DNA from: an uncultured Gammaproteobacteria bacterium
GTDB taxonomy: Bacteria > Pseudomonadota > Gammaproteobacteria > SZUA-140
DNA: 64,000 nucleotides
Assembly: GCA_964487925.1 (NCBI GenBank)
Contig: CAZASZ010000003.1
Coordinates: 738-64,737 of the forward strand
Direction of reading: 5' to 3'
In this document: piece by piece, positions 40,281 to 49,938 of the stretch
Numbering within the stretch: the stretch's first letter is position 1
Layout of the letters: each line of letters opens with the position of its first letter
The notes under the pieces: generated by a model
Told to the model about the DNA's origin: nothing
The model's database searches: none
The model's input: the letters and a program-made list of their open reading frames with translations, nothing else
Made by a program: the position numbers and the translations under genes

Positions 40281-41747
40281 ATGGCGCAGACCACACCGCT
40301 GATTCTGATCCTTGACCAGGGCAGCCATGCGAGTCGGGCCATGCTCTATGACCTGAGGGGGCAGGCCATCAGCAGCTACCACATTCCCCTCGAACCCGAA
40401 CACCCCGATGCGATCCGCAGCGAATACCCTGCTGACGCGCCCTATGCGACATTGCGACATTGTATCAACCAAGTCCTATCGGATATCGGCGATGGCATTG
40501 TCCTGGCTGCAGCGCTCGCCTGTCAACGCTCCTCTATTGCCTGCTGGGACCGCCAGGACAATAGCCCCCTGTCACCCGTCATCAGCTGGCAAGATCGCCG
40601 AACCGAAGCTGATCTCACACACTGGAAGGAACATAGCGCGCATATCCAGGAACTGACCGGACTACGGCTTTCCACTTATTACGGCGCCACCAAACTCCGC
40701 TGGTGCCTTCATAACCTGCCCCAGGTCAAAGCGGCTAAGGATCGTGGACGTTTGGCGTGTGGTCCGCTGGCCAGCCGGTTGGTTTGGCAACTGACGCGTG
40801 AACATGGCCTGTTCATCGATCCGGCCAATGCCGCCCGCACCCTCTTGATCGACCATGCCAGCCGCGACTGGTCACCCCTACTACTCGAGCTCTTCGACTT
40901 AAACACCGCCTATCTGCCTACCTGCGTTTCGTCCGATTACGACTTCGGTCTCATACCAAGCGCTGTAGGCGACATCCCACTAAAGCTCGTCACCGGGGAT
41001 CAGTCGGCTGCGCTCTATGCCCACGGCCCGCTGCGCAAGGACACACTCTATGCAACCCTTGGTACCGGCGCCTTCCTGACTCAGCCGACCGCGGAGTGGG
41101 TTACCTCCGATCAACTACTGACAACAGTCGTTCATGACGACGGGACCCGCCGCGACCATGCCTTAGAAGGAACTATCAACGGAGCAGGAAGCGCGCTGAG
41201 CTGGTTCAAAGAGACGACTGAGGCGCACGCCATGGCTACGTTTCAGGAGGACCTGCCGCTTTGGATGGCGAACAAGACCGATCCGCCGATTTTCCTGAAC
41301 GGCGTCCACGGCCTAGGCACACCGTTCAGTGGTGCGAAACTCAGGTCTCGCTTCATCGCAACCCTGGGCAATCAACACCCCGACCTGGGGGACCGGGCCG
41401 TCGCCGTTATCGAAAGCATCGTCTTCCTACTCGAGGAAAACCGCCGCACCATGTTGGCATCGGGTACCATGGCGCGACAGATTGTTATCGGTGGCGGGCT
41501 TTCACGGCTCGACGGCCTCTGCCAGCGTCTGGCGGACCTCACGGGCCTGCCGATTAGACGCTGCAGCGAGCCCGAAACAACCGGCCACGGACTCGCATTT
41601 CTGTTGATACGGCAACTGACCGGATACGCCGTATTTAATCTCGAGGGAGGCCTCGTGGATGACTTCGCGCCGAGACCGAATACCGCACTTGCCGCGCGCT
41701 TTACAAACTGGCAGGCCGCCATGCAGGAGAATTTATCCCATGACTGA
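40281..41747 (+). CDS. FGGY-family carbohydrate kinase, divergent glycerol-kinase-like
   Basis: ILILDQGSHASRAMLYD ... ISWQDRRTEAD aligns with the GlpK N-terminus (IDQGTTSSRAVV...VWQCRRTAE). Two actin-like ATPase domains. Start at MAQTTPLI. Confidence 0.75.
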   Translation: MAQTTPLILILDQGSHASRAMLYDLRGQAISSYHIPLEPEHPDAIRSEYPADAPYATLRHCINQVLSDIGDGIVLAAALACQRSSIACWDRQDNSPLSPVISWQDRRTEADLTHWKEHSAHIQELTGLRLSTYYGATKLRWCLHNLPQVKAAKDRGRLACGPLASRLVWQLTREHGLFIDPANAARTLLIDHASRDWSPLLLELFDLNTAYLPTCVSSDYDFGLIPSAVGDIPLKLVTGDQSAALYAHGPLRKDTLYATLGTGAFLTQPTAEWVTSDQLLTTVVHDDGTRRDHALEGTINGAGSALSWFKETTEAHAMATFQEDLPLWMANKTDPPIFLNGVHGLGTPFSGAKLRSRFIATLGNQHPDLGDRAVAVIESIVFLLEENRRTMLASGTMARQIVIGGGLSRLDGLCQRLADLTGLPIRRCSEPETTGHGLAFLLIRQLTGYAVFNLEGGLVDDFAPRPNTALAARFTNWQAAMQENLSHD

Positions 41748-42495
41748 CACGGACGGCGGACCACAATTCATCGCCCACCGCGGTGCGGCCAGCTGCTTTC
41801 CGGAGAACTCACTGATCGGCATCGAGGCCGCCCTGCGATCTGGCGCGAGTCACGTCGAGATAGACGTCCAAGTCAGCGCCGACGGCATCCCCGTTGTGCT
41901 CCACGACGAGCACCTTGAGCGTATCACCGGCCAACCCGGATCGGTAGTTCAGACGGACTGGGCTACCCTGAGCACCCTGCCCGCCGGCGAACCAGGTCGA
42001 CTCGGCGCCGCTTTCGCCTATACCCGACTGATAACGCTTGAGGCGCTCGCCACGCGCTGGCAAGACTGGCCTGGAGCAACCCTCTGGGTCGAGATCAAGG
42101 AGGAGAGCATCTGGCACTTCGGTATTACTCGGGTAGTGGAAAGCATCCTGGCCGCACTACGCGCCATAGCCAAGCAATTCATCCTGATCTCCTACGATCA
42201 CTGCGTCCTGCAATACGTCCGCGAGCGTTGCGACGCGCCCATCGGCTGGGTGCTACATGACTATGACGATGCCAGCCGACGGACTGCGGACAGGCTTAGT
42301 CCCGAGTTCATGATCTGCAACGTCAACAAGATTCCGATTGAGGGACTCTGGTCCGGCCCCTGGCAGTGGGCACTTTATGAATTCACCGACCCCCAACTAG
42401 CGCTTCAGTGGCATCATCTCGGCGCCCAATTCATCGAGACCATGGCGATCACGGAGCTACTCCAAGACCCGCGCTTACGGAGAGATCAAGCATGA
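41740..42495 (+). CDS. glycerophosphodiester phosphodiesterase (GDPD family)
   Basis: FIAHRGAASCFPENSLIGIEAALRSGASHVEIDVQVSADGIPVVLHDEHLERITG is the GDPD catalytic signature (HRG...ENS...E.D.....DG..VV.HD). 8-nt overlap with the kinase. Confidence 0.85.
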   Translation: MTDTDGGPQFIAHRGAASCFPENSLIGIEAALRSGASHVEIDVQVSADGIPVVLHDEHLERITGQPGSVVQTDWATLSTLPAGEPGRLGAAFAYTRLITLEALATRWQDWPGATLWVEIKEESIWHFGITRVVESILAALRAIAKQFILISYDHCVLQYVRERCDAPIGWVLHDYDDASRRTADRLSPEFMICNVNKIPIEGLWSGPWQWALYEFTDPQLALQWHHLGAQFIETMAITELLQDPRLRRDQA

Positions 42496-43661
42496 CGGCA
42501 GCCTATGATGTCGTTGTGATCGGCGCAGGCATTCACGGTGCGGGCGTCGCTCAAGCCGTTGCCGCGAGTGGCCACTCAGTGCTTGTGCTAGAACAAAGCG
42601 GCATCGCCAGTGGTACCTCAAGCCGATCCAGCAAACTCATCCATGGCGGCCTGCGCTATCTGGAAAGTCGTCAGTTCGGGCTGGTCCGTGAATGCCTTTA
42701 TGAGCGTCGGCGATTGCTGCAACTGGCGCCTGAGCTGGTCCGGCTCGTACCATTTTTTATCCCGATCTATCAGGAAACCCGGCGGCGGCCCTGGCAGCTA
42801 CATATCGGCCTTGGCATCTATCGCTGGCTTAGCGGTGACTCTTCAGGGAGCTACGTGACCGTCCCCAAAAAACACTGGCACGAACTGGACGACCTGGCGA
42901 CGACAGGACTCACAAGCGTGTTTCAATATCAGGATGCCCAGACTGACGACGCCGCGTTGACACGGGCTGTGATTCGGGCCGCCCTCGACCTAGGAGCAGA
43001 ACTCAGAGTACCCGCATTGTTCAAGTGCGCCGAGTTTGAACCCCATGGCTGCCTGGTCGAATTCGAGGAAAACGGTCAATCGCAGACTTGCAAGGCCAAG
43101 GTACTTATCAACGCAGCGGGTCCAACTGTCAATAAGGTCCTTTTCCACTGTCTTCCTCAGCCTGTTGCCGAACCGATCGAGCTTGTGCAGGGCACCCATA
43201 TCGTCCTGGATACACCGTTCCGGAAAGGCTGCTATTACGTCGAATCACCGCACGACGGCCGCGCGGTGTTCGTTATGCCCTGGCAAGAAAATCGTTTGTT
43301 GATCGGTACAACGGAACGGAGCATCCCGGAGGGCACCGAACCGACGCCAACGGAGACCGAAATTGCTTACCTTCAGGAAACGGCCAGCCGCTACTTCCCC
43401 GCACTCGACTCCTTTGCGATCAGTGACGCCTTCGCCGGCGCCCGTGTCCTACCCGCAAGCGGCGGCACTGCCTTTGGCCGCCCCCGCGATACCCGTCTCG
43501 TGACTGACCGCGACGAACGACCACGCCTTCTAACAATCTATGGAGGAAAACTGACCGCCTACCGGCTCACAGCCGAAAAGGTCATGGCGCAAATCGCCGC
43601 CAGCCTCCCCGAACGCGACGCCATTGCCGACACCCGAACCATGCCGCTACGACCGGAATAA
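42492..43661 (+). CDS. FAD-dependent glycerol-3-phosphate dehydrogenase, short GlpD-like
   Basis: YDVVVIGAGIHGAGVAQ...TSSRSSKLIHGGLRYLE aligns with the GlpD N-terminus. At 389 aa it is shorter than canonical GlpD (about 500 aa). ATGA overlap with the GDPD gene. Confidence 0.8.
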   Translation: MTAAYDVVVIGAGIHGAGVAQAVAASGHSVLVLEQSGIASGTSSRSSKLIHGGLRYLESRQFGLVRECLYERRRLLQLAPELVRLVPFFIPIYQETRRRPWQLHIGLGIYRWLSGDSSGSYVTVPKKHWHELDDLATTGLTSVFQYQDAQTDDAALTRAVIRAALDLGAELRVPALFKCAEFEPHGCLVEFEENGQSQTCKAKVLINAAGPTVNKVLFHCLPQPVAEPIELVQGTHIVLDTPFRKGCYYVESPHDGRAVFVMPWQENRLLIGTTERSIPEGTEPTPTETEIAYLQETASRYFPALDSFAISDAFAGARVLPASGGTAFGRPRDTRLVTDRDERPRLLTIYGGKLTAYRLTAEKVMAQIAASLPERDAIADTRTMPLRPE

Positions 43662-43705
43662 CTACCTGTCAGCAGACGACCCGCATCCGACGGGCTATGA
43701 CTACC

Positions 43706-43839
43706 AGCCCTGAAAAGGTCTTATACGAGTGCGAGACAAGGCGAAATTCGCCGAGAAAGCGCAGTTTACGTTTTGTAAATGAGCATTTCGAGGCGAATTT
43801 TAACGCCGTATCGTGCCGTATAAGGCCTTTTCAGCCGGG
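43706..43839. repeat. imperfect 20-bp inverted repeat flanking about 90 bp, with internal palindromes
   Basis: Arms CCCTGAAAAGGTCTTATACG (43708-43727) and CGTATAAGGCCTTTTCAGCCGGG (43817-43839) match at 19/20 positions. Between them are GGCGAAATTCGCC and GAGGCGAATTTTAACGCC. The region is lower in GC than its surroundings, and arm 2 overlaps the 3' end of the HIT gene. Confidence 0.5.
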
Positions 43840-44175
43840 AGGCCAACCTAGGATGCGTCCGGCTAGGACATGCATGTGAATATGATAAACCGCCTGACCG
43901 GCGTCACTGTTACAGTTGAAGACCGTACGGTAGCCACGCTGGCCGTAACCAGCGTCCGTTGCCAAATCCTTTGCCACGATGAACAAATGGCCGATCAGCT
44001 CCTTGTGCTCTGATTCGAGTTCAATCAGCGTCGGGATATGCTCCTTCGGAATAACCAGCAGATGGAAGGGCGCCTGGGGATTGATGTCCTTAAACGCGAC
44101 CACCTTATCGTCTTCATAAACCACGTCCGCCTTCAAGTTACCCTTGACGATCTCGCAAAATAGACAGCTACTCAT
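43831..44175 (-). CDS. HIT-family nucleotide hydrolase (HinT-like)
   Basis: Histidine triad HIHMHVL; MSSCLFCEIVKG N-terminus; 114 aa from the internal start. Confidence 0.88.
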   Translation of the reverse strand: MSSCLFCEIVKGNLKADVVYEDDKVVAFKDINPQAPFHLLVIPKEHIPTLIELESEHKELIGHLFIVAKDLATDAGYGQRGYRTVFNCNSDAGQAVYHIHMHVLAGRILGWPPG

Positions 44176-44240
44176 ATTCCTCCCCTCCCTCTCCATTTAT
44201 AGTGGATTAAGATAGCCTTAAGACGTTCGAACGTCCAGTC

Positions 44241-45023
44241 CTACCGCCTCCACTTACCCTCCCACAAGCGCTCCACCCGACTCACGATCCTGCCATCGGG
44301 ATGCAGCCAAAGATGCCTGAAACCCGGCGAGCGTTCGTCGATCCGCAACGCCCTAGACCCCGGCTGAAATTGGACCGAAGTCGCTGGCGTCCCCCAGCAG
44401 GGCAAGCCATGGGCCTGTTCGTGAAAATCCTGGTGGATATGCCCCCAAATAAGCCCTCGAACGGAGGCGAAGCGCCGAATAACATCGTGCAACGCATCGG
44501 GATTGTCGAGCGTCATTTCGCTATCCAGCCAAGCGCAACCGTTGGGTAGGACCGGGTGATGTAGGGCGATCAGACGATGGCGTTCAAGATCGATATGCAG
44601 ACGCGCCGACAGCCCGGATAGGGATACATCGGAGAGATGTCCCGAACAACGACCAGGGACGGTTGAATCCAACAAGATGATTTGCCAATCCCTTAGTTCG
44701 ATCGCCTCCGGCATCCCAATATTCCCGCCAGGCAGCACCCGGAGCATGACCCCGGGGTCATCGTGGTTGCCCGGCAGACAGGCCACCGGCAGATCGAGCG
44801 TGCGCAGATGATCGGCAAGCCGCTCGTATGACTCGACGCTGCCGTCGTCACTGAGGTCGCCGGTGGCAAGGCAATAATCGGGACGATAGGTCTTTATGAT
44901 TTCGGTTACGAGCGCTAAGGTCGCATCTGGATCGACGCCCCGAATTACGGGACCGATAGTCTCGGCCAGATGGCAATCAGTAATCTGGATAAGATGCCAT
45001 ACTCTCGATTCCGACACGGTCAT
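44241..45023 (-). CDS. cpdA: 3',5'-cyclic-nucleotide phosphodiesterase (class III, metallophosphoesterase)
   Basis: QITDCHL ... ATGDLSDDG ... LPGNHDD ... GHIH metallophosphoesterase motifs in CpdA-like order; 260 aa. Confidence 0.8.
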   Translation of the reverse strand: MTVSESRVWHLIQITDCHLAETIGPVIRGVDPDATLALVTEIIKTYRPDYCLATGDLSDDGSVESYERLADHLRTLDLPVACLPGNHDDPGVMLRVLPGGNIGMPEAIELRDWQIILLDSTVPGRCSGHLSDVSLSGLSARLHIDLERHRLIALHHPVLPNGCAWLDSEMTLDNPDALHDVIRRFASVRGLIWGHIHQDFHEQAHGLPCWGTPATSVQFQPGSRALRIDERSPGFRHLWLHPDGRIVSRVERLWEGKWRR

Positions 45024-45733
45024 ACGACAGCGTTGGATGGCCGCCTGGATTTAGTCGGAGGGGTTGCCACTTTATCGCGTAGATAAACTGGAAGGGCCAA
45101 CTCCGGGGCGACACATTCGCCTCGCGCATGCATCTGCGCGCCCAGCGTAGCGATATCTCGCGCCTGGGGCAGACATTCACCGACCCATGCAACGAGCGGA
45201 CGATCCAGGTGCCGGTGCAGACGAGACCCATAAGTGAACCAGCCAGTACCGCAGCCGAACCAATGTCCTTCCGGGGGCGACAGCACGTCCTCGGGTGCGC
45301 AAACACGCTCATCTTGGAGTGAGACTAGCGCACCCGACTCGACGACGCGGTAGCAACCCCAATAGACCTCCATCATGCGGGCGTCGATCGCCGGCAGAAT
45401 CTCTCTCTCGCCGCGTTCCCGCCAAGCACCCCAGGCCAACGCCGCCAGGGTCGACACTGGGGCAACCGGCAGATCGGCCGTAAAGGCCAGACCCTGCGTA
45501 ACGGCGCTTGCGATCCGCACACCCGTAAAGGCCCCCGGACCGCGACCGAAGGCGATCAGATCAAGCTGGGGCAGCGTCAACCCCGCCTCTTCGAGCAACG
45601 ACTCGACCATAGGCAGGATCAGTTCGGTATGCCGTCGCGGCGCGATCTCGAAACGTTCACGGATCTCGCCATCGATATCAAGAGCGGCGGAACATGCCTC
45701 AGTCGCAGTATCTATGGCAAGAATCCTGCTCAT
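45020..45733 (-). CDS. tsaB: tRNA threonylcarbamoyladenosine biosynthesis protein TsaB (YeaZ)
   Basis: ILAIDTATEACSAAL N-terminus; ...GPGAFTGVRIA motif; 237 aa; 4-nt overlaps on both sides. Confidence 0.88.
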   Translation of the reverse strand: MSRILAIDTATEACSAALDIDGEIRERFEIAPRRHTELILPMVESLLEEAGLTLPQLDLIAFGRGPGAFTGVRIASAVTQGLAFTADLPVAPVSTLAALAWGAWRERGEREILPAIDARMMEVYWGCYRVVESGALVSLQDERVCAPEDVLSPPEGHWFGCGTGWFTYGSRLHRHLDRPLVAWVGECLPQARDIATLGAQMHARGECVAPELALPVYLRDKVATPPTKSRRPSNAVV

Positions 45734-47685
45734 GACGGTGCTCCTATCGAAAGTGTTGTTCGTGTGCCCTCAGTCACCCTAAAAAAGTTTTTCACATCAT
45801 CGATTGAGCTGGTCCGGGTCATGGGTGGCAGGTTATTCAGAAAGACCCGCCCGTAGCTGCGGGACTTCAGTCTGGGATCGCACAACACGAGCACGCCGAA
45901 GTCGTCCTGATCACGGATCAACCGTCCCGCGCCCTGTTTGAGCGCCAGCACGGCCTGAGGCAATTGCAGCAGCCGAAAGGCGTTTTCGCCTTGATTGGCC
46001 AACTGAGTCTGACGGGCCTGAAAGACCGGGTCGTCGGGGCTGAAGAACGGCAATTTGTCGATGATCACGCAAGACAGGTGCTCACCGCGCACGTCCACAC
46101 CCTCCCAGAAACTCGAGGTCCCGAGCAGCACGGCGTTACCCAAACTGCGGAAGCGTTCGAGCAGCAAACCGCGCGGCCCCTCGCCCTGAACGAGCAACGG
46201 ATAGGCTAGCGACATCGAGCGCAGACGTTCGGCAGCAAAACGCAAAGCCTGATGGCTCGTAAAGAGTAAAAAAGTCCGGCCACGGCTCGCCGTCACAATC
46301 TCGGCTGCGAGATCAACGACCGCATCGGTGTAGGACCGGCTACCGGGATCGGGCAGCCCCTGGGGCATATACATCAGGGCCTGATTGGCATAATCAAAGG
46401 GGCTCGCCCACTGCCCGGTCTGCGGTTCTTCAATACCCAGGCGGGCCGTAAAATGGCTGAAATCGGTCCCTATGGACAGGGTAGCCGACGTGAAAACCCA
46501 GGCGCAGTCGTAGCGCTCCATTTGCGCACGAAAACCCTCCGCACAACTCATCGCGGTCTGATGCAGGCGAAATGCATGACGACTGGTCTCGTACCAACTG
46601 ACCAGGTTCTCGTCATCGCCGCCGATAACCTGAGCGAGATCGTCGCGCGCCACGGCACAGCGCTGACGGCAAGTTTCAAGCCCCTTGCTACGCTCGCTAT
46701 GGAGCTCAAGCGCGCCATAAAATTCCTGAATACGCGCGCCGAGCTCGGCCATAGCAGCCTGCATGCCCGGTAACGCAACCGCGGCACGCCAGGCACCGCG
46801 CGTATCGCCTTTGCCAAAGAGCGCGCGCACGGCATCCACCGCAGCGATCAAATGAGTTGCACTGTCGCCGATCTCGCGGGCATCGCCAACCTCCGCGGCC
46901 TGACACTGGGCGGCGTCGCGCGCCAGCGACTGCAATTGGTGGGCGCTGACCGTACGCCCGAAGAACTGACTCGCGAGCTCCGGCAACTGATGTGCCTCGT
47001 CGACGATGACGGCCTCGCAGTTCGGCAATAGCTCGCCGAAACCCTCCTCGCGCAAGCGCATATCGGAAAGCAGCAGGTGATGATTGATCACGACGATATC
47101 GGCAGCCTGGGCCGCCCGACGGGCCTTGACGACATGGCATCCCTGGTACTCGGGACACTCGGCGCCCAGACAATTCTCGGCCGTCGAAGTAACCTGATAC
47201 CAGATAGGGGCATCGGCCGGGACGTCGTCGACCTCCTCGACATCCCCACTGTGGGTGCGGCCACTCCAGCTCGAGATTCGGTGTAACTGGGCCTGTTGAC
47301 CGCGGGGCAACTGTCCCGATTGCTCTGCGATCTCAAGGCGGTATCGGCACAGATAGTTGCTACGCCCCTTGAGCATTGCCATGACGGGCCGAACACCGAG
47401 GGCGGCGCAGACCGTGGGCAGGTCGCGCCGGAAAAGCTGCTCCTGAAGGGTCCGGGTGCCGGTTGAGACCAGCGTACGCCCACCGCCAAGACAGACCGGC
47501 ACGAGATAGGCAAAGGTCTTGCCGGTACCGGTACCGGCCTCGGTCACGAGCGCGTCCTTGGCAGCCAACGCGGCCTCGACGGACTCAGCCATGGCCTGTT
47601 GCTCGGGACGTGCCCGAAATCCGGGGATATGCGACTGAAGTGGCCCCGTATCTCCGAGTGCATCGGAGGCACTTAACATGCTCAA
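45730..47685 (-). CDS. yoaA: DinG-family ATP-dependent DNA helicase (YoaA-like)
   Basis: Walker A EAGTGTGKTFAYL, DEAH box VIVDEAHQL, Fe-S cysteines (CLGAECPEYQGC) and C-terminal helicase motifs; 651 aa. Adjacent to tsaB as yoaA-yeaZ are in E. coli. Confidence 0.85.
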   Translation of the reverse strand: MSMLSASDALGDTGPLQSHIPGFRARPEQQAMAESVEAALAAKDALVTEAGTGTGKTFAYLVPVCLGGGRTLVSTGTRTLQEQLFRRDLPTVCAALGVRPVMAMLKGRSNYLCRYRLEIAEQSGQLPRGQQAQLHRISSWSGRTHSGDVEEVDDVPADAPIWYQVTSTAENCLGAECPEYQGCHVVKARRAAQAADIVVINHHLLLSDMRLREEGFGELLPNCEAVIVDEAHQLPELASQFFGRTVSAHQLQSLARDAAQCQAAEVGDAREIGDSATHLIAAVDAVRALFGKGDTRGAWRAAVALPGMQAAMAELGARIQEFYGALELHSERSKGLETCRQRCAVARDDLAQVIGGDDENLVSWYETSRHAFRLHQTAMSCAEGFRAQMERYDCAWVFTSATLSIGTDFSHFTARLGIEEPQTGQWASPFDYANQALMYMPQGLPDPGSRSYTDAVVDLAAEIVTASRGRTFLLFTSHQALRFAAERLRSMSLAYPLLVQGEGPRGLLLERFRSLGNAVLLGTSSFWEGVDVRGEHLSCVIIDKLPFFSPDDPVFQARQTQLANQGENAFRLLQLPQAVLALKQGAGRLIRDQDDFGVLVLCDPRLKSRSYGRVFLNNLPPMTRTSSIDDVKNFFRVTEGTRTTLSIGAPS

Positions 47686-48179
47686 ACCGTGCTTGTCTGG
47701 TTGTCCCAGACCTCATCGGTGACCAAGCCCTCTTCACGATTCCAGGCCATGCGCCCGACGCGCCTAAAGCGCGCCACGGTCATAGCCCCGCGCCGATTCT
47801 TAGACGTCGAATCGAGGGCCTCGCGGACCTCGGCACGATCGGCCTCGTAGATCTCAAACGGCTCCAGATCGGCATCCATGAGCACAAGCACGACAAGATC
47901 CCAATCCTGATCCATCTTGAACTGTCCGATTCGATGCCCGGATTTGGATTCATCGAAGATCGTACGGCCCTTGATCAAGACCCGTTTACCCGCACGCGCC
48001 CCCCGGCCAATGGCATCACAACCGGGATCCGTACTGGCCTCAAGATCAAGCAAGCGAATGGCATCGTGGAGGCAGACCTCACCGCTAACCCCCGCCAAGG
48101 GCTTACCGGTCGCGCGATAATAATCCGCCGCCAGTTTGCGAGCCTCAGCGATCAGCTTGTCGACGGAATAGACACCCAT
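47682..48179 (-). CDS. hypothetical protein, translationally coupled upstream of yoaA
   Basis: 165 aa, soluble, not recognised. Its stop overlaps the helicase start by 4 nt. Central region ...DAIGRG...RVLIKGR...WDLVVLVLMDADLEPFEIYEA might be nuclease-like, but that is speculative. Confidence 0.45.
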   Translation of the reverse strand: MGVYSVDKLIAEARKLAADYYRATGKPLAGVSGEVCLHDAIRLLDLEASTDPGCDAIGRGARAGKRVLIKGRTIFDESKSGHRIGQFKMDQDWDLVVLVLMDADLEPFEIYEADRAEVREALDSTSKNRRGAMTVARFRRVGRMAWNREEGLVTDEVWDNQTSTV

Positions 48180-48308
48180 TAGAGGTCTCGTATGGCCTTA
48201 CGATATAGAGTAATTGAAGCATTCTAGCATCACCCGGGGAAATCCAAAGCATATGCACAATCCGAGCGATCACAAGGATCACTCGTTGGACATTTATATG
48301 GCGTCAAT

Positions 48309-48322
48309 GGCATGTGCCATAA
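48309..48322. promoter_or_regulatory. perfect 14-bp palindrome ATGGCATGTGCCAT in a divergent intergenic region
   Basis: Seen directly in the sequence between the 165-aa gene (minus strand) and the kinase gene (plus strand). Candidate dimeric-regulator operator; alternatively, if the long upstream start is real, it lies inside the kinase N-terminus. Confidence 0.35.
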
Positions 48323-48396
48323 TGCTCGGGACGGAACCTGAGTCCGCTTTCCAAACGAATTTGTCGCATTCAGAGCCAAGTACCGGGACACCCGAG

Positions 48397-49938
48397 ATGC
48401 CAAACGCCCTCATCGACGCGCTGCAGGACCCGACGCTCTACGATCATCCCGTGACCGCTTTCCAAGTCATCGAGACCCATAGCTCATGGGTCCTCCTAAC
48501 AGGCCTCATGGCCTATAAAATCAAGAAACCCATCGACCTGGGGTTCCTGGACTTCTCGTCCCTAGAGAAGCGCCATACCGACTGTCTGGAGGAAATCCGA
48601 CTCAACCGCCGTCTGGCCGAATCGCTCTACCTGGACGTCGTGCCCATTACCGGAATCCCCGAGAAGCCCCGCCTCGGCGGGACGGGTACCGCCATAGAAT
48701 ACGCCGTACGGATGCGGCAGTTCGATCCGGAGACTCAGCTCGATGTGCTAATTGAAAAAGGCGAACTGACGGCGGCAATCTGTCGACGCCTCGCGAAACG
48801 CATCGCTCGCTTCCACGCTGACTGTCCGACGGCACAGGAAGACAGCGACTTCGGCCAACCCGAGGCCATCCGCCAAGCTGTCTTCGACAACTTCATCCAC
48901 CTCGCTGAGATGGACATCCGCGTTGAAGAACGGGCGCATATTGACGACATACACACCTGGACGCGGACGCAACACGAGCGACTGGCGGCTTCGTTTGCCA
49001 ACCGACGCGCCGCCGGCCATATACGCGAATGCCACGGTGATCTGCACCTAGCCAACATCGCGCTGATCAACGGTGATCCCTTACCCTTCGATTGCCTGGA
49101 ATTCAACCCCAATCTACGCTGGATAGACACCATGAGCGAGATGGCTTTCCTGGTAATGGACCTCGACCGGCGCTGCCGAGCCGACTTGGCTCGCGTAACC
49201 CTGAATGCCTACCTAGAGGCGGGTGGGGACTATGAGGGCATTACCCTGTTTCGATACTACGCCGTCTATCGCGCCATGGTTCGGGTCAAGGTGGCCGCGA
49301 TCCGTCGCACTCAGGCCGGCGCTGACGAGCTCGAAGCCCTGAGCCGAGAGATCAGCGCCGGCCTCAAACTCGCGCAGCGGTATACAATGCCCACAGAAGG
49401 TCGCCTGATCCTTACCCACGGACTATCCGGATCCGGCAAAAGCTTGGTCTCGGCCAAGCTCCTGGCAGAGGCCGACATCATCAGGACCCGCTCAGACGTC
49501 GAGCGCCGGCGCTTGTTCCCCGAATCGGCCGGACGTTATTCCGCTGCGGCCAGCCAAGCCACATATGCGCACCTGACCCATGTCGCAAAGCACATCATCA
49601 AGGCTGGGTACAGCGCCCTGATCGATGCGACCTTCCTGAAACAGACTCAGCGCGCCGGTTTTATCGCCTTAGCCGAAGCATTGAATTGTCCCCTGGTTAT
49701 CCTTGACCTACAGGCGCCCGAAGAACTGTTGAGACAGTGGATACGTGAGCGCGCGCTCCGTGGCGGCGATCCCTCGGAGGCCGACGAGGCCGTGCTCACT
49801 CGTCAAATACAGACTTACGACCCCCTCAGCAACGGGGAACTTCGCTATGCGGTGAGCGTAGATACCAGTCAAACGATCGACGCCGGGGCACTCGCCGAGG
49901 CAATTCTCTCGCCAACCCACAAGAATGGCGCCGATTGA
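48397..49938 (+). CDS. bifunctional aminoglycoside-phosphotransferase-like / P-loop kinase protein
   Basis: N-terminal APH/protein-kinase-like fold with HGDLHLANI (the catalytic HGD...N motif). C-terminal P-loop NTPase GLSGSGKSL (AAA_33/zeta-toxin-like kinase). Start chosen at MPNALIDAL (513 aa); the ORF is open back to 48214. Confidence 0.65.
   Translation: MPNALIDALQDPTLYDHPVTAFQVIETHSSWVLLTGLMAYKIKKPIDLGFLDFSSLEKRHTDCLEEIRLNRRLAESLYLDVVPITGIPEKPRLGGTGTAIEYAVRMRQFDPETQLDVLIEKGELTAAICRRLAKRIARFHADCPTAQEDSDFGQPEAIRQAVFDNFIHLAEMDIRVEERAHIDDIHTWTRTQHERLAASFANRRAAGHIRECHGDLHLANIALINGDPLPFDCLEFNPNLRWIDTMSEMAFLVMDLDRRCRADLARVTLNAYLEAGGDYEGITLFRYYAVYRAMVRVKVAAIRRTQAGADELEALSREISAGLKLAQRYTMPTEGRLILTHGLSGSGKSLVSAKLLAEADIIRTRSDVERRRLFPESAGRYSAAASQATYAHLTHVAKHIIKAGYSALIDATFLKQTQRAGFIALAEALNCPLVILDLQAPEELLRQWIRERALRGGDPSEADEAVLTRQIQTYDPLSNGELRYAVSVDTSQTIDAGALAEAILSPTHKNGAD

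What the first reader, a model, noticed from the sequence alone, without database searches (positions are those of the whole stretch)
44241..48179. Four-gene coupled operon: unknown 165-aa protein, yoaA (DinG family), tsaB, cpdA
All three junctions overlap by 4 nt (ATGA-type), implying translational coupling. yoaA-tsaB adjacency is known from E. coli, but the leading 165-aa soluble protein is unrecognised and is physically coupled to the Fe-S DinG-family helicase. Its central region (DAIGRG ... RVLIKGR ... DLVVLVLMDADLEPFE) has the spacing of a small nuclease-like or alpha/beta fold. A helicase with a dedicated small partner could be an undescribed repair module.
Basis: partly seen in the sequence, partly recalled or inferred. 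Interest (0 to 1): 0.5.

Follow-up and report, generated by a model that had tools for sequence, protein, structure and literature searches.

The report
Restriction-enzyme-like gene fixed before yoaA
The "unknown" 165-residue protein is a relative of methylation-dependent restriction enzymes that sits directly in front of the repair helicase gene yoaA in many sulfur-oxidising and related Gammaproteobacteria, so it is a candidate nuclease or DNA-recognition partner for that helicase, though no interaction has been shown.

Summary
The four minus-strand genes are real. Two junctions are ATGA overlaps. The first is most likely a 2-nt gap (TGA gc ATG), not an overlap. A HIT-family gene probably extends the operon to five genes.

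Its clade behaves like a core gene, not a defence gene.
- yoaA lies directly downstream in 66 of 67 species-level genomes. This link is tighter than yoaA-tsaB (54 of 64), while the outer flanks vary.
- The link held in 5 of 7 more distant lineages sampled (45-53% identity where measured).
- The gene evolves more slowly than yoaA (dN/dS 0.057 against 0.073).

Relatives at 35-42% identity on plasmids and prophages are never next to yoaA.

Catalytic E34, D55 and K70 are invariant. The metal-binding Gln of QxK is Leu in this copy and Leu/Ile in 14 of 195 homologues.

My best reading is a domesticated restriction-type endonuclease that works in the YoaA pathway. This is inferred only: no interaction or activity was tested. 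I found no paper describing this link. Rating: new variant of a known kind, moderate interest.

The parts
47682..48179 (-). Gene for the 165-aa BisI/PvuII-fold PD-(D/E)XK endonuclease-like protein, a clade of the DUF6998 / PADLOC mREase_II superfamily that is linked to yoaA
47970..48080 (-). Catalytic core: E34 (48078-48080), D55 (48015-48017), L68-I69-K70 (47970-47978). L68 occupies the position of the metal-binding Gln of the QxK motif.
   Evidence: E34, D55 and K70 are invariant in 195 non-identical homologues. Position 68 is Q in 181, L in 7 and I in 7. Mapping to NhoI WD/QVK and Eco15I AD/QIK.
47697..47717 (-). C-terminal tail motif D155-E-V-W-D-N-Q161, conserved in sequence but predicted to be disordered
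   Evidence: The five best-conserved positions (D155, E156, W158, D159, N160) are 82-97% conserved in 120 homologues; positions 157 and 161 are 43% and 65%. pLDDT is below 50 for residues 156-165. Absent from plasmid and viral relatives. Also absent from some yoaA-linked lineages, for example P0123.
47677..47684 (-). Junction between the small gene and yoaA: stop TGA (47682-47684), 2-nt spacer gc, ATG start of yoaA (47677-47679). The alternative TTG start at 47685 would give a TTGA overlap.
   Evidence: Sequence. L008 has TGA-c-ATG and no TTG. The NCBIfam YoaA model aligns from residue 8 of the TTG-started ORF.
45730..47679 (-). yoaA, a DinG/XPD-family Fe-S 5'-3' DNA repair helicase
   Evidence: NCBIfam NF053712 at 846 bits against a 680 cutoff. 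45% identical to E. coli YoaA over the full length, with the R-T pair at the position of the E. coli HolC-binding residues R619/T620. Four invariant Cys: C111, C170, C175, C181.
45020..45733 (-). tsaB (t6A complex dimerisation subunit), with an ATGA overlap onto yoaA
   Evidence: TIGR03725 at 206 bits against a 69 cutoff. Junction sequence. Same yoaA-then-tsaB order in E. coli K-12.
44241..45023 (-). CpdA-like calcineurin-type metallophosphoesterase, with an ATGA overlap onto tsaB
   Evidence: Pfam Metallophos. NF008359 at 203 bits, below the 225 cutoff. Junction. Present after tsaB in only 9 of 51 related genomes.
43831..44196 (-). HIT-family (HinT-like) gene, probably the fifth gene of the transcription unit
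   Evidence: Pfam HIT / DcpS_C. 44-nt gap on the same strand and no terminator-like site between it and the cpdA-like gene. Co-occurs with the cpdA-like gene in related loci.

Best explanation
The first gene encodes a chromosomal, vertically inherited offshoot of the BisI/NhoI-type (PvuII-fold, PD-QxK) restriction-endonuclease superfamily.

Shown:
- Its fold and active-site layout.
- Its fixation at the 5' end of the ancestral yoaA-tsaB pair in a large group of Gammaproteobacteria.
- Strong purifying selection on it.
- The absence of this clade from mobile elements.

Inferred:
- It probably forms a homodimer through its N-terminal helix, as NhoI does.
- It is made together with YoaA, because the stop and the next start are 2 nt apart.
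- It acts in the same pathway. YoaA, recruited to stalled forks by chi/SSB, unwinds DNA at a blocked 3' end. The small protein would supply the DNA-cleaving or DNA-recognising step that E. coli gets from unlinked nucleases.
- It would then be an unfused counterpart of the nuclease-helicase fusions ExoDinG and EndoDinG.

In this window's copy the metal-binding Gln is Leu. Either E34 and D55 are enough for catalysis, or this lineage uses the protein mainly for DNA binding or targeting.
For: Fold and homology:
- AF2 model pLDDT 85.5.
- Family profile against NhoI E 1e-5, with the PD and QxK motifs aligned.
- PADLOC mREase_II E 1.8e-22. DUF6998 matched by 15 of 17 homologues.
- E34, D55 and K70 invariant in 195 sequences.

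Linkage:
- 446 species genomes carry a relative.
- yoaA lies directly downstream on the same strand in 66 of 67 loci. The comparison figures are 54 of 64 for yoaA-tsaB, 9 of 51 for the cpdA-like gene and 15 of 65 for the upstream AAA_33 gene.
- Linkage recurs with different flanks in distant lineages: P0123 (53% identity), P0124 (48%), P0128, P0131 (46%), and P0133 (45%). In P0133 two genes are inserted and no tsaB is present.

Core-gene behaviour:
- Mean pairwise identity is 66.5%, against 58.7% for YoaA and 54.0% for TsaB. Pairwise distances correlate with YoaA at r = 0.86.
- dN/dS is 0.057, against 0.073 and 0.072.
- GC and GC3 match the neighbours.

Contrast:
- Plasmid and prophage relatives at 35-42% identity are stand-alone and never next to yoaA.

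Precedent:
- The E. coli model needs a nuclease acting in trans (PMC4636137; PMC11981726).
- DinG fusions to nucleases exist (PMC13650095).
Against: - No interaction, co-transcription or activity was tested.
- Conserved gene order alone is weak evidence. yoaA-tsaB is also conserved, in E. coli too, with no functional link that I know of.
- One close genome (L063) and two related lineages (P0129 in a flagellar cluster, P0138) lack the link.
- E. coli YoaA works without such a gene and its upstream neighbour is yoaB. The window's YoaA keeps the chi-binding R-T pair, so no partner is obviously missing.
- L68 in this copy replaces a residue whose mutation abolishes activity in Eco15I.
- The conserved tail is missing from some yoaA-linked lineages.
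- No SOS box lies upstream in any of 81 loci, unlike E. coli yoaA.
Confidence: 0.5

Rival explanations
1. It is simply a solitary modification-dependent restriction endonuclease (Type IIM/IV, BisI-like) used for phage defence. Its position before yoaA is frozen synteny: it was inserted once at the promoter-proximal end of an operon that carries the essential tsaB, and it cannot easily be removed.
For: - Its closest solved structures are m5C-dependent REases.
- It matches the PADLOC mREase_II model.
- The catalytic E, D and K residues are invariant.
- R72 and Q86 align with the NhoI external methyl-pocket residues R84 and Q96.
- Mobile relatives on plasmids and prophages look like defence cargo, for example next to an ABC-three-component system, IS elements and toxin-antitoxin genes.
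Against: - It is more conserved than YoaA and TsaB, with dN/dS 0.057. That is atypical for a gene in an arms race.
- This clade is absent from the plasmid, phage and viral collections searched.
- The link to yoaA persists where tsaB is not adjacent (P0133) and is tighter than yoaA-tsaB.
- The metal-binding Gln was lost at least 3-4 times without decay of the gene, whereas all 21 viral homologues keep QIK.
- The NhoI R101 equivalent is Gln (Q91 in this family), and the (H/R)(V/I/T/M) motif is not consistently present.
- PDLC03209 scores for the clade are 78-135 bits, against 119-301 for mobile members.
Confidence: 0.28
2. It is a non-catalytic DNA-binding protein built on a nuclease fold. It could be a transcriptional regulator of the yoaA operon or an adaptor, and cleavage is not part of its role.
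For: - Q68 is L or I in 14 of 195 members, including this copy, and these stay under strong purifying selection.
- No LexA box lies upstream, so another regulator could control yoaA here.
- A conserved, disordered, acidic-aromatic tail suggests protein docking.
Against: - E34, D55 and K70 are 100% invariant, even in the L/I lineages. That is hard to explain without catalysis.
- 93% of members keep the full E-D-QxK set.
- No conserved operator or promoter element was identified.
Confidence: 0.15
3. The 165-codon ORF is a chance or mis-called ORF in GC-rich DNA.
For: A 239-aa ORF overlaps it on the opposite strand. This copy has no Pfam, NCBIfam or PHROG match.
Against: - 926 homologues, and 1029 clusters at 50% identity.
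- dN/dS 0.057 at dS about 1.2.
- A confident fold.
- A conserved start, MGVYSVDKLI.
Confidence: 0.01

Closest known systems
BisI family of m5C-dependent restriction endonucleases (NhoI, Eco15I N-terminal domain; PDB 8q5n, 8rpx, 8q5m, 8q5o; PMC11347163)
   Same: - Same small (about 165 aa) PvuII-like PD-QxK fold with an N-terminal helix.
- The aligned catalytic E, D and QxK positions correspond, and R72 and Q86 match NhoI R84 and Q96.
   Different: - Only about 20% identity, and the single-sequence E-value is 0.15.
- A 3-residue G-R-G insertion follows the catalytic Asp.
- The R101 equivalent is Gln, and the (H/R)(V/I/T/M) motif is not clearly present.
- This copy has L in place of the catalytic Q.
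- It is chromosomal, syntenic and slowly evolving, and linked to yoaA rather than stand-alone or mobile.
- It has a clade-specific C-terminal tail.
Mobile DUF6998 / PADLOC PDLC03209 'mREase_II' proteins on plasmids and prophages
   Same: Clear homologues at 35-42% identity and nearly full length, with the E, D and QIK residues intact.
   Different: - They are stand-alone genes in accessory regions and are never next to yoaA or tsaB.
- They lack the DE-x-WDN tail. The three plasmid homologues aligned also lack the G-R-G motif and W93.
- They score much higher on the defence model: 119-301 bits against 78 for this copy.
EndoDinG and ExoDinG (DinG-family helicases fused to an N-terminal nuclease; PMC13650095, PMC11981726)
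   Same: A DinG/XPD-family 5'-3' Fe-S helicase combined with a nuclease encoded immediately 5' of the helicase. For the fusions, the proposed logic is coordinated unwinding and cutting of 3' ends.
   Different: - Here the nuclease is a separate gene, not a domain.
- Its fold is the restriction-enzyme PvuII/BisI type, not the RecB/Cas4-like PD-(D/E)XK fold or the DnaQ fold.
- The helicase is a bona fide YoaA with chi-binding residues.
- Coordination between the two proteins is untested.
E. coli YoaA-chi (HolC) complex
   Same: The helicase is orthologous: equivalog hit, 45% identity, conserved R-T chi-binding pair, and the same yoaA-tsaB order.
   Different: E. coli has no upstream small gene; its neighbour is the divergent yoaB. 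The known partner chi is encoded elsewhere and is unrelated in fold. E. coli yoaA is SOS-regulated, whereas no LexA box is present here.
MutH (a relative of the restriction enzyme Sau3AI recruited into mismatch repair, working with the UvrD helicase; from general knowledge, not tested here)
   Same: It is a conceptual precedent: a small type-II-restriction-like endonuclease that became a core repair factor and acts alongside a helicase.

Membership tests
BisI family (modification-dependent REases) | PvuII-like PD-(D/E)XK fold with an N-terminal dimerisation helix | tested here: met
BisI family (modification-dependent REases) | Catalytic Glu (alpha1), Asp (PD motif) and Q-x-K | tested here: not met
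   This copy has E34, D55 and K70 but L68 in place of Q. In the clade as a whole Q is present in 181 of 195 sequences. Every active-site mutation tested abolished activity in Eco15I.
BisI family (modification-dependent REases) | Methyl-pocket residues: R84, Q96 and S98 (external); R101 plus the (H/R)(V/I/T/M) motif (internal) | tested here: inconclusive
   By profile alignment, R72 corresponds to R84 and Q86 to Q96, both invariant. S98 corresponds to K88 and R101 to Q91. The C-terminal motif could not be placed without a structural superposition; R140-V141 fits in this copy, but position 140 is R in only 15 of 120 homologues.
BisI family (modification-dependent REases) | m5C/hm5C-dependent cleavage within GCNGC-type sites | not testable with these tools
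   This needs enzyme assays.
BisI family (modification-dependent REases) | Stand-alone defence-type gene context | tested here: not met
   66 of 67 loci have yoaA directly downstream. The clade is absent from the plasmid, phage and viral collections. dN/dS 0.057.
Pfam DUF6998 (PF22522) | Score above the gathering threshold (27 bits) | tested here: not met
   No hit for the window protein at E <= 0.1. 15 of 17 close homologues match at E <= 0.01, for example P0064 at 34.9 bits. The clade sits at the edge of the model.
PADLOC mREase_II (PDLC03209) | Significant full-length match to the model | tested here: met
   E 1.8e-22, 78 bits, residues 9-148 against model positions 16-159 of 166. Mobile members score 119-301 bits.
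YoaA (for the helicase) | NCBIfam equivalog score at or above the cutoff | tested here: met
   846 bits against a 680 cutoff.
YoaA (for the helicase) | Four-Cys Fe-S cluster motif | tested here: met
   C111, C170, C175 and C181 are invariant in 15 YoaA sequences.
YoaA (for the helicase) | C-terminal helix with the HolC-binding R619/T620 (criterion in PMC11981726) | tested here: met
   LPPMTRTSSI aligns with E. coli LPPAPRTRDI (criterion).
YoaA (for the helicase) | A HolC homologue in the same genome | not tested
   Only a 64-kb window is available, and it was not scanned for holC.
EndoDinG-type nuclease-helicase | Nuclease domain fused to the N-terminus of the DinG-like helicase | tested here: not met
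   They are separate ORFs with a stop codon and a change of frame between them. The median intergenic gap in relatives is about 33 nt.
CpdA (3',5'-cAMP phosphodiesterase) | NCBIfam equivalog score at or above the cutoff | tested here: not met
   203 bits against a 225 cutoff. Pfam Metallophos is met.

The most novel reading that the evidence does not exclude
A restriction endonuclease of the BisI/PvuII type was domesticated in an ancestor of a large gammaproteobacterial group. It became a dedicated subunit of the YoaA replication-repair helicase. In this reading it is the 'missing' nuclease or lesion/structure reader that processes blocked 3' ends at stalled forks, possibly docking through its conserved acidic-aromatic C-terminal tail. 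That would be a second case, like MutH, of a defence nuclease being taken over for core genome maintenance. It would also be an unfused evolutionary counterpart of EndoDinG.
Probability: 0.3. Interest if true: 0.75.

Novelty: new variant of a known kind. Interest (0 to 1): 0.55.

Why it matters
- How YoaA-chi removes blocked 3' termini is still unclear, and the nuclease involved in E. coli is only inferred. A conserved nuclease-fold gene placed directly before yoaA in at least 66 species-level genomes gives a concrete candidate to test by co-purification, nuclease assays and complementation of AZT sensitivity.
- It is a caution for defence-system annotation. PADLOC-type models label this gene a methyl-directed restriction enzyme, yet this clade behaves like a vertically inherited housekeeping gene.
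- The repeated replacement of the metal-binding Gln by Leu or Ile under strong purifying selection is a natural experiment on what this active site needs.

Tried and rejected
**Attempts that failed**
- AF2 on a fused YoaA-linker-small chain with 14 genome-paired rows, to see whether the tail becomes ordered.
- A metagenome scan with a YoaA alignment, to measure how often yoaA loci carry the small gene.
- The afdb50 fold library was unavailable.

**Searches that found nothing**
- LexA/SOS box CTGT-N8-ACAG: none upstream in the window. The single match in the window is inside the AAA_33 gene, at chance level. None in 81 upstream regions.
- Sigma-70 consensus promoters: none in 43600-48600. The three terminator-like sites all lie inside genes and are no more than chance would give.
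- Pfam, NCBIfam and PHROGs gave nothing for this copy.
- The phage GenBank collection had no homologue.
- A literature search for DUF6998 found 0 papers.

**Ideas rejected**
- The small protein as a chi (HolC) substitute. The fold is a nuclease fold, and YoaA keeps its chi-binding residues.
- The C-terminal tail as a universal marker of yoaA linkage. P0123 and P0124 are linked but lack the motif.
- The gene as recently transferred. Its GC and GC3 match its neighbours, and its distances track YoaA.

Full report

The minus strand carries four ORFs: 47682-48179 (165 aa), 45730-47685 (651 aa from a TTG), 45020-45733 (237 aa) and 44241-45023 (260 aa).
- The second ORF is YoaA by the NCBIfam equivalog (846 bits, cutoff 680).
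- The third is TsaB (206 bits, cutoff 69).
- The fourth is a calcineurin-type metallophosphoesterase. It scores 203 bits on the CpdA equivalog, below the 225 cutoff, so I call it CpdA-like.

The yoaA/tsaB and tsaB/cpdA-like junctions are ATGA overlaps. The first junction reads gtTTGAgcATG. It overlaps only if a TTG start is used. The nearest genome (L008) has TGA-c-ATG with no TTG, and its YoaA starts at the equivalent Met. The real arrangement is therefore most likely stop, 2 nt, ATG at 47679.

A HIT-family gene follows 44 nt after the cpdA-like gene on the same strand, with no terminator-like site between.

**2. What is the 165-aa protein?**

This copy has no Pfam, NCBIfam or PHROG match. 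It does match PADLOC model PDLC03209, 'Type II methyl-directed restriction enzyme', over almost its full length (E 1.8e-22). Fifteen of 17 close homologues match Pfam DUF6998.

An AlphaFold2 model built from 17 homologues is confident (pLDDT 85.5, pTM 0.81). Its best structural matches are:

A profile of the family finds NhoI at E 1e-5 and Eco15I at E 0.004. The alignment puts the family's Y-D55 on the WD/AD ('PD') motif and Q68-I-K70 on the QVK/QIK motif. Those are the residues the structural paper identifies as catalytic (PMC11347163).

**3. Active site**

In 195 non-identical homologues, E34, D55 and K70 are invariant. Position 68 is Q in 181, L in 7 and I in 7, and the window copy has L.
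- The L/I forms arose at least three or four times. One L-type protein is 92% identical to a Q-type protein.
- They are not decaying. dN/dS between the window gene (L) and its 87%-identical orthologue (Q) is 0.057 at dS about 1.2. The same comparison gives 0.073 for yoaA and 0.072 for tsaB.
- All 21 viral-contig homologues keep QIK.
- In Eco15I, every active-site substitution abolished activity.

Either E34 and D55 suffice here, or cleavage is not the only property under selection. In NhoI, the residue equivalent to E34 (Glu50) contacts the metal in only some protomers. T73 co-varies with L/I68 (13 of 14, against 38 of 181), and I cannot explain this.

**4. Linkage to yoaA**

A scan of one genome per GTDB species found 446 genomes with a relative. 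The best 80 are all labelled as Gammaproteobacteria except one record named only 'Bacterium BMS3Bbin13'. They include Chromatiales, Thiogranum, Thiohalobacter, Thiohalomonadaceae, Sedimenticola and Thiotrichaceae MAGs.

| Adjacency in these loci | Count |
|---|---|
| small gene then yoaA, same strand, directly downstream (median gap about 33 nt) | 66 of 67 |
| yoaA then tsaB, directly | 54 of 64 |
| tsaB then the cpdA-like gene | 9 of 51 |
| AAA_33 kinase gene, divergent and adjacent upstream | 15 of 65 |

The small-gene/yoaA pair is the most stable adjacency in the neighbourhood. The single clear exception, L063, has DUF4389 and leuS downstream.

An exhaustive profile search found 1029 clusters at 50% identity (556 at E <= 1e-10). 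I sampled the contexts of more distant representatives.

| Representative | Identity to window protein | Context |
|---|---|---|
| P0123 | 53% | directly upstream of yoaA-tsaB |
| P0124 | 48% | 10 nt upstream of yoaA |
| P0128 | not measured | 72 nt upstream of a 610-aa DinG-family helicase |
| P0131 | 46% | 22 nt upstream of a YoaA N-terminus |
| P0133 | 45% | same-strand cluster: small gene, LemA, a GIDE-like gene, then YoaA (854 bits); no tsaB |
| P0129 | 47% | inside a flagellar cluster, between fliS and fliD |
| P0138 | 40% | tsaB 1.5 kb downstream, no yoaA |

E. coli K-12 has yoaA then tsaB on the same strand, with the divergent yoaB upstream and no small gene. The small gene therefore looks like an addition to an older yoaA-tsaB pair.

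**5. Core gene or defence gene?**

Relatives at 35-42% identity occur on megaplasmids (Cupriavidus, Burkholderia, Pseudomonas pQBR103, Rhizobium, Sinorhizobium) and in 21 IMG/VR contigs.
- The three plasmid copies whose annotation I read are stand-alone genes in accessory regions: beside IS elements and toxin-antitoxin genes in Cupriavidus, near an ABC-three-component system in Rhizobium, and among hypothetical genes in pQBR103.
- The 21 viral-contig homologues and the three plasmid homologues aligned all keep QIK. No yoaA or tsaB homologue was found in the 21 viral-contig loci or the three plasmid regions.
- The matches end at about residue 146-157, before the tail motif.
- They score 119-301 bits on the PADLOC model, against 78-135 bits for the yoaA-linked clade.

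The yoaA-linked clade differs in several ways.
- It was not found on any plasmid, phage or viral contig.
- Its base composition matches its neighbours.
- It has higher mean pairwise identity (66.5%) than YoaA (58.7%) or TsaB (54.0%) from the same 56 genomes.
- Its pairwise distances track those of YoaA (r = 0.86).

This is the behaviour of a vertically inherited housekeeping gene. It is not typical of a restriction gene.

**6. Clade-specific features**

The clade has invariant G58-x-G60, R62, Q86, W93, E109 and E112. Its C-terminal tail has the consensus D-E-(V/I/L)-W-D-N-(Q/R). The five best-conserved positions are 82-97% conserved, yet the tail lies in the only region of the model with pLDDT below 50. 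That pattern suggests a short docking motif.
- Variants of the tail occur in the linked lineages P0128, P0131 and P0133.
- It is missing in the linked lineages P0123 and P0124, so it is not required for linkage.

By profile alignment, R72 and Q86 correspond to the NhoI external methyl-pocket residues R84 and Q96. The equivalents of S98 and R101 are K and Q. The (H/R)(V/I/T/M) motif cannot be placed with confidence.

**7. How it most likely works**

Shown:
- fold and active-site homology to BisI-type endonucleases;
- fixation directly 5' of yoaA;
- strong purifying selection;
- separation from the mobile relatives;
- the helicase is an orthologue of E. coli YoaA (45% identity), with four invariant Fe-S cysteines and the R-T pair that binds chi in E. 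coli.

Inferred:
- The protein is co-expressed with YoaA and acts in the same pathway. It would supply DNA cleavage, or recognition of a DNA structure, at blocked or stalled 3' ends that YoaA unwinds.
- The E. coli model explicitly calls for a nuclease acting in trans (PMC4636137; PMC11981726).
- DinG-family helicases fused to nucleases (ExoDinG, EndoDinG) show that this combination recurs (PMC13650095).

I put this at about 0.5. The main rival, at about 0.28, is a solitary modification-dependent restriction enzyme whose position is frozen synteny. A non-catalytic DNA-binding or regulatory role is possible, at about 0.15.

Nothing here tests binding, co-transcription or activity. The yoaA-tsaB example shows that a conserved adjacency need not mean shared function.

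**8. Known or new?**

The fold family (BisI/NhoI), the domain family (DUF6998), the helicase (YoaA) and the general idea of pairing a nuclease with a DinG helicase are all known.
- I found no paper that mentions DUF6998.
- The DinG-family review contains no occurrence of 'neighbor' or 'DUF6998'.
- Database names for these proteins are all 'hypothetical protein'.

I rate it a new variant of a known kind: an unfused, restriction-fold partner gene for YoaA.

**9. Limits**

- I could not measure how often yoaA loci in these taxa lack the small gene, because the metagenome scan failed.
- I could not model the complex.
- No promoter or SOS box was identified.
- The source organism is an uncultured gammaproteobacterium. 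Identical copies occur in three metagenome contigs.

Noticed in passing
window 48214-49938 (+): A 574-aa protein (start uncertain) with APH-like and AAA_33 P-loop kinase domains is transcribed divergently from the small gene. The kinase part resembles the kinase domain of bacterial polynucleotide kinase-phosphatase (TIGR04075, E 3.9e-10, far below its cutoff). A homologue lies within a few kb upstream in many related loci, and is adjacent and divergent in 15 of 65. A possible end-healing role near yoaA was not explored.
   Followed up: partly
L004 9268-9918 (also L005 3800-4450): In some related genomes an ERCC4/XPF-type nuclease with HhH motifs lies immediately downstream of tsaB, in place of the cpdA-like gene. 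This is another nuclease in the yoaA neighbourhood.
   Followed up: no
L096 3550-4047; L097 3164-3661: A sister clade (P0129, 47% identical, no tail motif, seen on more than 24 contigs) sits inside a flagellar gene cluster between fliS and fliD. That is an odd place for a restriction-fold protein.
   Followed up: no
L122 4001-7952: In a lineage that carries a Fae gene nearby, two genes (a LemA family gene and a GIDE-like gene) are inserted between the small gene and yoaA on the same strand, and tsaB is not adjacent.
   Followed up: partly
window 47976-47978 (L68) and 47961-47963 (T73): Thr at position 73 co-varies with the Leu/Ile replacement of the catalytic Gln: 13 of 14 L/I-type sequences against 38 of 181 Q-type. 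It could be compensatory or simply phylogenetic.
   Followed up: partly
window 43831-44196 (-): A HIT-family (HinT-like) gene lies 44 nt after the cpdA-like gene on the same strand. The cpdA-like and HIT genes travel together in the subset of related loci that have them.
   Followed up: partly
window 41659-43661 (+): A glycerophosphodiester phosphodiesterase (GDPD-type) and a FAD-dependent glycerol-3-phosphate-dehydrogenase-like gene (Pfam DAO) converge on the HIT gene. A glycerol-kinase-family gene lies beyond them. This looks like ordinary metabolism.
   Followed up: no
L095 2685-4103 (-): In the P0138 lineage a 472-aa ORF with no Pfam or NCBIfam match occupies, on the opposite strand, the position between the small gene and tsaB where yoaA would be expected.
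   Followed up: partly
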